A stretch of DNA of 64,000 nucleotides. Origin: Desulfovibrio sp. GTDB taxonomy: Bacteria; Desulfobacterota; Desulfovibrionia; Desulfovibrionales; Desulfovibrionaceae. A program made the translations under genes and the position numbers. The DNA is taken from assembly GCA_017528345.1 (NCBI GenBank), contig JAFXOX010000068.1, positions 2,097-66,096 on the forward strand. Direction: 5' to 3'. Shown here piece after piece: positions 55,615 to 56,530 of this stretch. Positions within the stretch are counted from its first letter, which is position 1, and every line of letters begins with the position of its first letter. The notes below the pieces were generated by a model that did not search any database, was not told the origin of the DNA, and saw only the letters and a program-made list of their open reading frames with translations.

Positions 55615-55905
55615 ATGTTGGTCCTCCTTGTCCTGATAATCTTCATCGCCGCCCTGGCCGCCTGGCATCTGCTTCTGACACGGCACAGGCAGCATCTCTC
55701 TGCCTTTTTGCTGCGCACGCACTACGAGCTCTACGAGCATCCAAGTCTCTTTGTCAAACGCTTTGCCCAAAGCGGCCAAAGGCGCAAAGCTGACGCTCAG
55801 CTGCGAGATGCCGCTCATTGGCGGGGATGGCTTTTCACGATCGCCCTGCCTCTCGTCTTTCTCCTGCTTTTAACCTGCTCTCTCAAATATTTGTACCTCG
55901 ACTAA
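55615..55905 (+). CDS. Small membrane protein (2 TM)
   Basis: Hydrophobic N- and C-termini; AGGA RBS. Confidence 0.5.
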   Translation: MLVLLVLIIFIAALAAWHLLLTRHRQHLSAFLLRTHYELYEHPSLFVKRFAQSGQRRKADAQLRDAAHWRGWLFTIALPLVFLLLLTCSLKYLYLD

Positions 55906-56088
55906 AACCACAAATACCTCTCATGGACTTCCCCCAGTCGGCACCATACCACCCGTATTTTGAGCCTAAAGGACTGATCGCTCAACGTGAAATGGAAACC
56001 TGGCGCCTCAGTAATGGACTCATTCATATGACCCTGTGACCGGTTGGCTAAAAAGCGCTCAAAAGCACCCCGTGGATAGCAAATTTAT

Positions 56089-56409
56089 CCTACGCGCCGT
56101 AAAACATCTCCCTTCAGGGGGAGGATATAAGGCGCACCGTTAGAATTTTCTTGCCCTTTTGCCTTTCCTGCTTCAAACTCCTTCTTGGCGGCTGGGCAAG
56201 CCGTGTCAGCCTGTGGAGAGATAGTGAGAGCCTTTCGGGAATAGCTGGTTGGTTTTTGCCGTAACATTCCCCACTGTGGGAATTTGACAGCAAAAACCAA
56301 GCTAATATTCCTCTGGGCAGTCCAGTTTTCGCAGGAACCAGCCTAGGGTTTCAGACGTAAGGCTCCCTCCGCTAGGAATCCCCCGACTTTAGGCGGTGGA
56401 GGATGTCAA
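56089..56409 (+). mobile_element. Non-autonomous IS200/IS605 mini-element, copy 2 (321 bp)
   Basis: Follows TTTAT (56084-56088); left-end hairpin CTCCC-ttcag-GGGAG; tnpB tip LAAGQAVSACGEIVRAFRE* (stop 56242-56244); right end GGAATCCCCCGACTTTAGGCGGTGGAGGATGTCAA. Confidence 0.88.
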
Positions 56410-56530
56410 ATTCTCTATAATGCTATAAAGTTTACAATCCGCTGATCCGGTCTATACCTAGATTTTCGGATTTTTTTGGCAATTTTGGTTCAAAACTTGG
56501 GTGAGACCTCAACTCAGGCCTCAGATACCG

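What the first reader, a model, noticed from the sequence alone, without database searches (positions are those of the whole stretch)
56089..56430. Transposase-less IS200/IS605 mini-element that keeps the whole right-end (omega/reRNA) region: a candidate mobile guide-RNA cassette
Seen: this 321-bp element follows TTTAT and has a left-end hairpin. It retains only the last ~20 codons of tnpB (LAAGQAVSACGEIVRAFRE*), then ~165 nt with internal hairpins (e.g. ATTCCC-cactgt-GGGAAT), a right-end hairpin and the terminal TCAA. Established: IS200/IS605 elements insert next to a short AT-rich motif, and TnpB uses an RNA from the tnpB 3' end and right end whose guide is the flanking DNA. Inference: the deletion removed tnpA and tnpB but spared the scaffold. 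Each copy could therefore supply a different guide (here ATTCTCTATAATGCTATAAA) to a TnpB or TldR-like protein in trans.
Basis: partly seen in the sequence, partly recalled or inferred. Interest (0 to 1): 0.8.

Follow-up and report, generated by a model that had tools for sequence, protein, structure and literature searches.

The report
Gene-less mini-transposon keeping its guide RNA
This is a 321-bp protein-less derivative of an IS608-like (IS200/IS605) insertion sequence. It keeps both transposon ends and the whole TnpB guide-RNA (omegaRNA) scaffold behind a promoter-like site, and it is transcribed into the flanking DNA in gut metatranscriptomes. It is a good example of a kind of element already described, not a new one.

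Summary
Window 56089-56409 (+) is a 321-bp element that follows TTTAT and ends in TCAA. A 92%-identical second copy lies at 31728-32047 (-), and homology starts and stops exactly at those motifs. A third, about 70%-identical copy lies at 8365-8653 (-).

Full-length relatives carry tnpA (Y1) and tnpB (for example L027). The ends follow the IS608 rules:
- The target's last base covaries with the left-end guide (TTAT with AAAA, TTAC with AAAG).
- GAAT lies 5' of the right hairpin.
- TCAA lies 10 nt 3' of the right hairpin.

A covariance model built only from tnpB-linked 3' ends matches copies A and B end to end (82.6 and 89.7 bits). The one difference is a ~103-nt expansion of one stem. The same expansion occurs in a real tnpB 3' end (L083).

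The consensus structure is 95% paired, with 8 compensated pairs. In four metatranscriptomes, RNA contigs cover only the scaffold plus 100-170 nt of flank for copies A and B.

The idea that such PATEs supply omegaRNA to TnpB in trans is already published (Meers et al. 2023). No intact TnpB could be placed in this genome. The guides match only their own flanks.

Verdict: a new member of a known kind, of moderate interest.

The parts
56084..56088 (+). TTTAT target / transposon-adjacent motif. The last four bases, TTAT, are the left cleavage site.
   Evidence: All three copies in the window are preceded by TTTAT. TTAT goes with the left-end guide AAAA, and TTAC goes with AAAG, across 12 distinct relatives.
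56089..56149 (+). Left end. It holds the DNA guide AAAA (56101-56104) immediately 5' of the hairpin CATCTCCC-TTCA-GGGGGAGG (56105-56124).
   Evidence: 83% identical to the left end of the full-length element L027 2332-2391. The architecture is that of the IS608 left end (PMC3201880).
56151..56179 (+). Promoter-like site: TTGCCC (56151-56156), 17 nt, CAAACT (56174-56179), ending 7 nt before the scaffold. This part is inferred.
   Evidence: The best sigma-70-like pair falls at this same position in 9 of 11 distinct mini-elements, scoring 7-9 of 12; the window scores 7 of 12. L074 has TTGACA-16-TAATCT. RNA contigs start downstream of it and none cover the left end. The stricter scan tool found no promoter.
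56185..56244 (+). Remnant of the tnpB 3' coding frame (LAAGQAVSACGEIVRAFRE*). The first 18 nt from 56187 also form stem A of the scaffold.
   Evidence: Matches ...NILAAGHAVSACG... of TnpB in L027 and in P0001/L083. Stem A, CGGCU-GGGCA-AGCCG, has compensatory changes at two pairs.
56187..56409 (+). omegaRNA-type scaffold, 223 nt. It comprises stem A, the long-range helix 56210-56214 with 56331-56335, an expanded stem (module), stem C (56342-56348 with 56369-56376) and the terminal hairpin.
   Evidence: A covariance model built from 16 tnpB-linked 3' ends matches 56184-56409 at 82.6 bits, E 5e-19, model 1-152/152. RNAalifold plus pair counts give 95.3% paired cells and 8 compensated pairs, with 0 of 500 shuffles as high.
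56218..56324 (+). Expanded stem ('module', about 103 nt where the short class has about 19 nt). It includes the 34-nt-arm inverted repeat and the ATTCCC/GGGAAT tip.
   Evidence: The same module lies in the 3' coding tail of a real tnpB fragment (P0001/L083). In the window copies 4 basal pairs are broken.
56375..56409 (+). Right-end recognition unit: GAAT (56375-56378), the hairpin CCCCCG-ACUUUAGG-CGGUGG, then AGGATG and the cleavage site TCAA (56406-56409).
   Evidence: The 22-mer GGAATCCCCCGACTTTAGGCGG is exact in 73 loci from many phyla. TCAA ends 10 nt 3' of the hairpin foot, as in IS608 (PMC3201880). Copy A has a G>T mismatch in the 3' arm.
56410..56429 (+). Flank that would serve as the guide (ATTCTCTATAATGCTATAAA).
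   Evidence: RNA contigs run from the scaffold through TCAA to 56513-56564 in X8, X25 and X26. There is no second match in the window or in viral contigs.
31728..32047 (-). Copy B of the same mini-element, with TTTAT at 32048-32052 and flank/guide GTGGTTGACCAAAGTC.
   Evidence: The covariance model scores 89.7 bits. RNA contigs cover 31936-31557 only. It is present in all same-species contigs seen.
8365..8653 (-). Third, diverged mini-element (about 70% identical over the scaffold). It has TTTAT at 8654-8658 and ends ...GGAATGTCAA. Its terminal TCA is the complement of the stop codon of the convergent gene 4760-8368.
   Evidence: There are no RNA contigs, and the covariance model does not hit it at E<=1.

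Best explanation
It is a non-autonomous, protein-less derivative (PATE/MITE type) of an IS608-like IS200/IS605 insertion sequence.

Shown:
- It keeps everything TnpA needs in cis: the left cleavage site TTAT with its matching DNA guide AAAA and hairpin, and the right guide GAAT, hairpin and TCAA.
- It keeps the complete stretch that in full-length relatives overlaps the tnpB 3' end and forms the omegaRNA scaffold.
- That stretch keeps its base pairing across copies and species.
- In four gut metatranscriptomes RNA contigs cover it from about the first stem through TCAA and 100-170 nt into the flank. They do not cover the left end or the neighbouring genes.

Inferred:
- A weak sigma-70-like promoter, left between the left end and the scaffold by the deletion, drives this RNA.
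- A TnpB made by a full-length relative binds the scaffold in trans and uses the flank-derived guide plus the TTTAT motif to cut the empty site left after TnpA excises the mini-element. Repair from the sister chromosome then restores the element.

On this reading the mini-element is a parasite of both TnpA and TnpB. Each copy carries its own guide because the guide is simply its flank.
For: - Boundaries and multiplicity. Two copies about 92% identical share exact edges, and there is a third diverged copy. In DNA metagenomes that hold this strain, summed depth is 100-350 inside the element against 16-17 in the flanks. That suggests roughly 6-20 copies in the community (similar).
- Family. The right-end 22-mer occurs in 73 loci, many with tnpA (PF01797) and tnpB (PF01385, PF07282, PF12323) immediately upstream.
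- IS608-type ends. TTAT/AAAA against TTAC/AAAG covary in 12 distinct loci. GAAT and TCAA are placed as in IS608 (PMC3201880).
- Scaffold completeness. The covariance model built from tnpB-linked ends matches 1-152/152. The functional ISDra2 scaffold is 116 nt (PMC10097598), against 140 nt here in the short class.
- The extra module is native to a tnpB lineage.
- Structure. 95.3% of cells are paired, against 37-52% when partners are slid. Eight pairs are compensated, including one between copies A and B.
- A mini-element with different ends (L074/L076) has the same 5' scaffold boundary and a near-consensus promoter.
- RNA.. The diverged third copy gives no RNA, which argues against general DNA carry-over.
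- A transcript of a tnpB of this family is present in the same metatranscriptome.
- The concept is stated in PMC10055086.
Against: - No tnpB or tnpA lies in the window.
- In metagenome X1, tnpB at 80% or more identity to L027 or L069 is absent at genome depth. Only a tnpA-like piece and a longer tnpB remnant were seen.
- Only one TnpB fragment with the long-class tail was found among 5.8 billion proteins, so the exact cognate protein may be rare or lost.
- Copy A has 4 broken pairs at the base of the module and a G>T mismatch in the right hairpin.
- The RNA data are unstranded assembled contigs. They show neither true 5' ends nor processed 16-20-nt guides.
- The promoter match is weak, 7 of 12, and the scan tool rejected it.
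- At this locus strains differ by a 611-nt block, not by a clean insertion at TTTAT. Recent TnpA-type movement of copy A is therefore not shown.
Confidence: 0.62

Rival explanations
1. The element is an inert, decaying remnant. It is a dead PATE whose internal region survives only by descent from a single deletion event, and its transcription is incidental, with no RNA-level function.
For: - No TnpB in the window, and none shown in the genome.
- Broken pairs in both window copies and a hairpin mismatch in copy A.
- The third copy is diverged and silent.
- Copies A and B are fixed or move only as part of larger blocks.
Against: - Pairing is kept at 95%, with 8 compensated pairs, across mini-elements 77-93% identical from several genera.
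- The same scaffold boundary and promoter position occur in mini-elements with different ends.
- More than 220 nt are kept, although TnpA binding needs only about 45-56 nt of right end (PMC3201880).
- The RNA pattern is the same for two copies in opposite genomic contexts.
Confidence: 0.2
2. The function is RNA- or DNA-level but independent of TnpB. The structured RNA or single-stranded DNA acts on TnpA, for example as a decoy for hairpin binding as speculated for haloarchaeal PATE RNAs. Alternatively the transcript acts as an antisense or 3'-end regulator of neighbouring genes (polA; the GAF-domain gene).
For: - The transcript from copy A runs antisense into the polA 3' end, to 56564 against the polA stop at 56531.
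- Copy B's transcript runs toward the GAF-domain gene.
- A PATE-derived RNA affected growth in Halobacterium, and a TnpA-decoy role was proposed (PMC4615843).
- There is a sub-threshold HgcC (RF00062) match at 56276-56422, 14.2 bits, E 1.1.
Against: - The conserved parts are exactly those shared with tnpB-linked omegaRNAs.
- The flanks differ between copies, so no common target exists.
- The HgcC match is far below the gathering score of 50.
Confidence: 0.1
3. The copies are domesticated guide-RNA genes that programme a nuclease-dead TnpB relative (TldR-like) or an active TnpB against other genomic or phage targets, for regulation or defence.
For: - The element is expressed, apparently from its own promoter-like site.
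- There are many copies, each with a different flank.
- TldR precedent exists (PMC10705468).
Against: - The guides of copies A and B have no second match in the window within 3 mismatches, and no exact TAM+guide match in viral contigs.
- The full-length family TnpBs read here keep the RuvC D/E/D motifs (GIDMG, IEDL, NAD in L027; read directly), so there is no sign of a dead effector.
- The transposon ends are intact, unlike fixed TldR loci.
Confidence: 0.06

Closest known systems
PATEs (palindrome-associated transposable elements) of IS200/IS605 that encode omegaRNA, as noted for Geobacillus stearothermophilus ISGst elements (Meers et al. 2023, PMC10055086) and Clostridioides difficile IStron PATEs (10.1101/2023.11.20.567912)
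   Same: - Left and right ends are fused and no protein gene remains.
- Movement and omegaRNA use must both come from proteins supplied in trans.
- The guide is the flank.
   Different: - The host is a gut Desulfovibrionaceae lineage.
- The scaffold carries a ~103-nt stem expansion.
- A promoter-like site sits at a fixed distance from the scaffold.
- Transcription is documented from public metatranscriptomes.
- None of this changes the kind of element.
IS608 of Helicobacter pylori (IS200/IS605 family; He et al. 2011, PMC3201880)
   Same: - The left cleavage/target tetranucleotide is read by a 4-nt guide just 5' of the left hairpin (TTAC with AAAG; here TTAT with AAAA).
[quoted passage not shown]
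- GAAT lies 5' of the right hairpin (the IS608 GAAT is recalled from the literature).
- There are no terminal inverted repeats and no target duplication.
   Different: - Full-length relatives here have tnpA and tnpB divergent, as in IS605, not co-oriented.
- The element itself has neither gene.
ISDra2 TnpB omegaRNA/reRNA (Karvelis et al. 2021, PMC8612924; Nakagawa et al. 2023, PMC10097598)
   Same: - The RNA overlaps the tnpB 3' end and the right end.
- It is a multi-stem scaffold of about 116-140 nt followed by a flank-derived guide.
- One apical stem is variable and dispensable.
   Different: - There is no detectable sequence similarity.
- The pseudoknot and triplex could not be assigned here.
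- The motif is TTTAT, not TTGAT.
Haloarchaeal PATE-derived RNA VNG_R0052 and IS1341 sotRNAs / Rfam HgcC (Gomes-Filho et al. 2015, PMC4615843)
   Same: An intergenic RNA is transcribed from a fused left-end/right-end element derived from a tnpB-type IS.
   Different: - That case is archaeal.
- Only a sub-threshold HgcC score was obtained here (14.2 bits against a gathering score of 50).

Membership tests
IS200/IS605 family, IS608-like ends (as a non-autonomous derivative) | Subterminal imperfect hairpins at both ends, with no terminal inverted repeats and no target-site duplication | tested here: met
   The left hairpin is at 56105-56124 and the right hairpin at 56378-56399, sharing ..CCC/GGGGGA-GGAT(A/G)T. 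The flanks of copies A and B are unrelated and not duplicated.
IS200/IS605 family, IS608-like ends (as a non-autonomous derivative) | The left cleavage/target tetranucleotide is specified by a 4-nt guide 5' of the left hairpin | tested here: met
   TTAT goes with AAAA in 5 distinct loci including both window copies, and TTAC goes with AAAG in 7 distinct loci. The rule is from PMC3201880.
IS200/IS605 family, IS608-like ends (as a non-autonomous derivative) | The right cleavage site lies a fixed distance 3' of the right hairpin (TCAA, 10 nt in IS608) | tested here: met
   The sequence CGGTGG|AGGATGTCAA ends the element, and similarity to copy B and to 70+ loci stops at TCAA.
IS200/IS605 family, IS608-like ends (as a non-autonomous derivative) | Full-length relatives with the same ends encode a Y1 HUH transposase and TnpB | tested here: met
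   L027 has tnpA of 138 aa (PF01797, 1.6e-41) and tnpB of 400 aa (PF01385, PF07282, PF12323). More than 15 further loci show the same.
IS200/IS605 family, IS608-like ends (as a non-autonomous derivative) | Mobility: precise presence/absence at the target motif between strains, or excision by TnpA | tested here: inconclusive
   Copy A is present or absent only as part of a 611-nt block. Copy B is fixed. No empty-site joint was seen in 8 DNA runs. The multi-copy state argues for past movement.
TnpB omegaRNA (reRNA) | Homology and structure shared with the RNA region at the 3' end of tnpB-bearing elements, from its first stem to the transposon end | tested here: met
   Covariance model R1, built from 16 tnpB-linked ends, scores 82.6 and 89.7 bits with model 1-152/152.
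TnpB omegaRNA (reRNA) | Transcribed across the right end so that flank sequence forms the 3' guide | tested here: met
   RNA contigs cover 56200-56564 (copy A) and 31936-31557 (copy B) in X8, X25, X26 and X27. Strand and mature ends are not resolved.
TnpB omegaRNA (reRNA) | Bound and used by a cognate TnpB in the same cell | not testable with these tools
   There is no TnpB in the window. The genome is not in the searchable collections. Metagenome hints are ambiguous.
TnpB omegaRNA (reRNA) | Match to a curated omegaRNA family model | tested here: not met
   Rfam 15 gives no match at gathering score in the whole window. The best related hit is HgcC RF00062 at 14.2 bits against 50. No omegaRNA family of this lineage matched, and Rfam may hold none.
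TldR-type domesticated guide RNA | Association with a nuclease-dead TnpB homologue and a guide that matches a promoter elsewhere | tested here: not met
   There is no TnpB-like gene in the window, and the guides match only their own flank. The whole genome was not testable.

The most novel reading that the evidence does not exclude
The 'long-class' scaffold may now live mainly as free-standing, self-promoted guide-RNA genes that have outlived their own TnpB. Every long-class copy found was a mini-element except one tnpB fragment among 5.8 billion proteins. Mini-elements with two different sets of ends share the same promoter-scaffold unit. If so, these are hyperparasites that borrow a heterologous (short-class) TnpB, or RNAs that have taken on a TnpB-independent role in gut Desulfovibrionaceae.
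Probability: 0.12. Interest if true: 0.65.

Novelty: new member of a known kind. Interest (0 to 1): 0.36.

Why it matters
If the trans model holds, this is a compact natural case in which a guide-RNA gene, stripped of both of its proteins, persists and multiplies by borrowing them. That bears on how guide-RNA genes separate from their nucleases, a step assumed in the origin of CRISPR arrays and of TldR regulators.

Practically, it offers a well-bounded scaffold with a defined dispensable stem. It also offers a family in which the left-end guide and the target (TTAT against TTAC) covary, for testing TnpA and TnpB specificity. It does not overturn anything known.

Tried and rejected
- Rfam at gathering score on the whole window gave nothing. 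At E<=10 there were only chance-level hits, including HgcC at 14.2 bits.
- The scan for the long-class motif in viral contigs gave nothing. TAM+guide scans of viral contigs for both guides gave nothing.
- Exact look-ups of PolA and two neighbouring proteins failed because of start-codon choice. Other neighbours worked.
- I tried to place a TnpB in the host genome. L027 and L069 full-length elements laid on metagenome X1 gave no tnpB at 80% identity or more, apart from the last ~32 coding nt, a tnpA-like 106-nt piece at genome depth, and a left end joined to a late tnpB position, which is a longer remnant.
- A peptide rebuilt from an RNA contig, padded to 48 aa with consensus residues, found only unrelated tnpB fragments.
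- Runs X31-X34 turned out to be low-depth metagenomes, not isolates.
- I considered that the RNA could be polA 3' read-through. I consider this unlikely because copy B, in a different context and orientation, shows the same element-relative coverage. It is not excluded, because the contigs are unstranded.
- An apparent pairing of TAGCTGGTT with AACCAGCCTA between copies A and B was dropped in favour of the RNAalifold model.

Full report
**1. What is there**

Window 56089-56409 (+) is a 321-bp unit preceded by TTTAT and ending in TCAA.
- the left hairpin;
- the short frame LAAGQAVSACGEIVRAFRE*, at 56185-56244;
- the internal ATTCCC/GGGAAT hairpin, which is the tip of a 34-nt-arm inverted repeat;
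- the right hairpin and the terminal TCAA.

A second copy lies at 31728-32047 on the minus strand. It is about 92% identical and is also preceded by TTTAT. Similarity starts immediately after TTTAT and stops at TCAA, so the boundaries are set by comparison and not only by motif.

A third, much more diverged copy (about 70% over the scaffold) lies at 8365-8653 (-). It again follows TTTAT and ends ...GGAATGTCAA.

In DNA metagenomes that hold this very strain, the flanks have word depth 16-17. The depths summed inside the element reach 100-350, and the assemblies break inside it. Goat and sheep gut runs show the same pattern. The element is therefore multi-copy, roughly 6-20 per genome equivalent if all copies belong to this organism.

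**2. Which family**

A 22-mer from the right end (GGAATCCCCCGACTTTAGGCGG) is exact in 73 loci of the species-representative genome collection. They come from Desulfovibrio and Mailhella through Tepidimonas and Burkholderia to Planctomycetes and Kiritimatiellia bins. In more than 15 of these loci a 380-410-aa TnpB ends just upstream and a 138-aa Y1 transposase lies divergently beside it. In L027 the Pfam hits are PF01797 for TnpA and PF12323, PF01385 and PF07282 for TnpB. TnpB there ends ...NILAAGHAVSACGAGRAQAPALKQELAYGTAH, which is the source of the window's remnant frame.

The ends obey the IS608 rules described by He et al. 2011 (PMC3201880):
- The four bases 5' of the left hairpin are AAAA wherever the target is TTAT (both window copies, L020, L041, L069).
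- They are AAAG wherever the target is TTAC (L027, L058, L067, L075, L077, L078, L080).
- At the right end, GAAT precedes the hairpin and TCAA ends 10 nt after its foot.

The mini-element therefore retains all the cis sites a TnpA of this family would need.

The 64-kb window contains no tnpA or tnpB homologue by tblastn.

**3. Is the whole guide-RNA region kept?**

I extracted the last 150 nt of 16 different tnpB-linked elements and aligned them. I then built a covariance model from them and searched the window.
- Copy A matches at 56184-56409 with 82.6 bits (E about 5e-19).
- Copy B matches with 89.7 bits.
- Both matches run over model positions 1-152 of 152.
- The only large difference is a ~103-nt insertion where the model has a 19-nt apical part of one stem.

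Relatives thus fall into two classes:
- a short class of about 140 nt (L007, L013, L014, L027, L062, L064);
- a long class of 201-223 nt, comprising the window copies and the mini-elements L009, L020, L041, L058, L067 and L074-L082.

The expansion is not an accident of the mini-elements. A translated long-class tail found a TnpB C-terminal fragment (P0001, PF07282). Its contig L083 shows the zinc-ribbon and RuvC-III coding sequence running straight into the same module and then into a right end.

For scale, the functional ISDra2 scaffold is 116 nt, and one of its apical stems is flexible and dispensable (PMC10097598).

**4. Structure**

RNAalifold was run on ten distinct long-class sequences (nine mini-elements and L083). 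It gives stem A, a long-range helix that encloses the module, the long irregular module hairpin, stem C and the terminal hairpin. Counting pairs on that structure gives the following:
- 95.3% of cells are paired, against 37-52% when partners are slid by 1-3 columns.
- 8 pairs have changes on both sides, against 1-5 when slid and 3.2 +/- 1.2 in shuffles (0 of 500 shuffles as high).

Stem A is CGGCU/AGCCG in copy A, CGGCA/UGCCG in copy B and CGGUC/GACCG in L020. Copies A and B share the same deletion junction, so at least that change arose after the proteins were lost.

Two caveats apply. The structure was derived from the same alignment on which it was counted. The window copies also break four pairs at the base of the module, and copy A has a G>T mismatch in the terminal hairpin.

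**5. Transcription**

Four metatranscriptomes from one study (X8, X25, X26, X27) hold exact contigs of this locus.
- For copy A they cover 56200-56564 and nothing else in 55700-56900.
- For copy B they cover 31936-31557 and nothing else in 31100-32700. The single exception is one left-end piece that, by its flank, belongs to another copy.

In element coordinates both patterns are the same. Coverage starts near the first stem, crosses TCAA and continues 100-170 nt into unique flank. The left ends and the neighbouring genes are not covered. The diverged third copy gives no contigs at all.

Because the two copies sit in opposite orientations and different contexts, an element-internal start is the simplest reading. 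The best sigma-70-like hexamer pair in the 60 nt upstream of the scaffold falls at the same place in 9 of 11 distinct mini-elements, with the -10 ending 7 nt before GGCGG. L074 has TTGACA-16-TAATCT. The window has only TTGCCC-17-CAAACT, and the stricter scan tool did not call it.

The limits of this evidence are that these are unstranded assembled contigs, their ends are set partly by repeat branching, and no mature guide length can be read.

**6. Mechanism proposed**

Shown: the element has intact cis ends, an intact and conserved scaffold, and RNA that carries flank sequence 3' of the scaffold.

Inferred: TnpA from a full-length relative moves the element. TnpB from a relative binds the RNA in trans and cuts TTTAT+flank once the element has been excised. 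Repair from the sister copy then restores it. This is the 'restorative homing' shown for ISGst elements, and Meers et al. explicitly note that PATEs often encode omegaRNAs that need TnpB in trans (PMC10055086).

The guides of copies A and B have no other match in the window within 3 mismatches, and no exact TAM+guide match in viral contigs. There is therefore no sign of regulatory or defence targets.

**7. The open point: is there a TnpB in this cell?**

The host genome is not in the searchable genome collection, since no 100% hit came back. I laid metagenome X1, which holds the strain at about 17x, on L027 and on L069. That showed:
- no tnpB body at 80% identity or more;
- a tnpA-like 106-nt piece on a 3.2-kb contig at depth 17.4;
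- a 78-nt unitig at depth 19.2 that extends 32 nt into tnpB coding sequence;
- a 28.8-kb contig at depth 16.3 in which a left end is joined to a late tnpB position, that is, a longer remnant.

Metatranscriptome X8 contains a 267-nt contig of tnpB coding sequence of this family, but I could not link it to a genome. This point stays unresolved and is the main reason for limited confidence in the trans model.

**8. Locus history**

Same-species contigs (MAGs GCA_018396355.1 and GCA_018396375.1, and ENA and Logan assemblies) mostly lack a 611-nt block, window 55907-56517. The block contains the mini-element plus 182 nt on its left and 108 nt on its right. It begins with a 53-nt, about 75-80% similar copy of the last codons of polA. 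One contig (L091) has the window's allele.

The polymorphism at this site is therefore not a clean TnpA-type insertion. Copy B is present in every strain seen. No empty-site joint appeared in eight DNA runs.

**9. Comparison and novelty**

In kind, this is a PATE of an IS608-like IS200/IS605 element that keeps its omegaRNA. That has been described before in concept (PMC10055086; 10.1101/2023.11.20.567912), and a PATE-derived RNA was shown to be expressed in Halobacterium (PMC4615843).

What this case adds:
- a well-bounded example in gut Desulfovibrionaceae with public RNA evidence;
- a fixed promoter-scaffold unit that also occurs between different transposon ends (L074/L076);
- a large stem expansion found almost only in protein-less copies.

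I rate it a new member of a known kind, with interest about 0.36.

Noticed in passing
window 8365-8653 (-): This is a third, diverged mini-element of the same family. It follows TTTAT and ends GGAATGTCAA. Its last bases overlap the stop codon (TGA, 8366-8368) of the convergent 7TMR-HD gene, so any read-through RNA would be antisense to that gene's 3' end. No RNA contigs were seen in the four metatranscriptomes.
   Followed up: partly
window 55907-56517, compared with L084-L095: Most same-species contigs lack a 611-nt block that contains copy A plus its immediate flanks. The block starts with a 53-nt diverged duplicate of the polA 3' end (55907-55959 against 56518-56570). In the short allele the polA stop lies 14 nt from the convergent 96-aa ORF. 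The origin is unexplained; integration into the polA 3' end, recombination with a relative, or a repair product are all possible.
   Followed up: partly
window 31613-31648 (-); also L083 about 500-530: A 36-nt stretch just beyond copy B's right end is 86% identical to the element's promoter-like segment (TTTCTTGCC(C/T)TTTTGC(C)TTTC(C/T)TGC). A similar TTGCCTTTTTTGCCTTTCTTGCC run follows the right end in L083. It may be a remnant of a neighbouring element or a shared promoter-like motif.
   Followed up: no
L074 4540-4870 and L076 (metagenome contigs): These mini-elements have a different left end (AAAATCGTGCCCGAAGACCTCTCCATTTATGGAGAGG...) and a different right end (...CTTGCTTAAGCAAGAGGAGGATGTCAC). 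They have the same promoter-scaffold core as the window's element, with a near-consensus TTGACA-16-TAATCT. This suggests exchange of transposon ends around a conserved guide-RNA unit.
   Followed up: partly
Genome-contig loci L001-L073: The 35-nt right end (GGAATCCCCCGACTTTAGGCGGGGGAGGATGTCAA) is nearly invariant from Desulfovibrionaceae to Burkholderiales, Planctomycetes, Kiritimatiellia and a Dormiibacterota bin, while the linked TnpB proteins are only about 60% identical. This points to strong constraint or recent horizontal spread of this IS lineage.
   Followed up: no
window 31411-31727 (-), seen in L097-L106 gene calls: Public gene calls place a 105-aa ORF that starts exactly at copy B's guide (GTG at 31727). 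The product is low-complexity and hydrophobic and is probably a false call. The region is covered by the read-through RNA.
   Followed up: no
window 56276-56422 (+): There is a sub-threshold match to Rfam HgcC (RF00062), 14.2 bits against a gathering score of 50, E 1.1, over the whole model. The literature links this archaeal family to IS1341 tnpB-overlapping RNAs and PATE RNAs (PMC4615843).
   Followed up: partly
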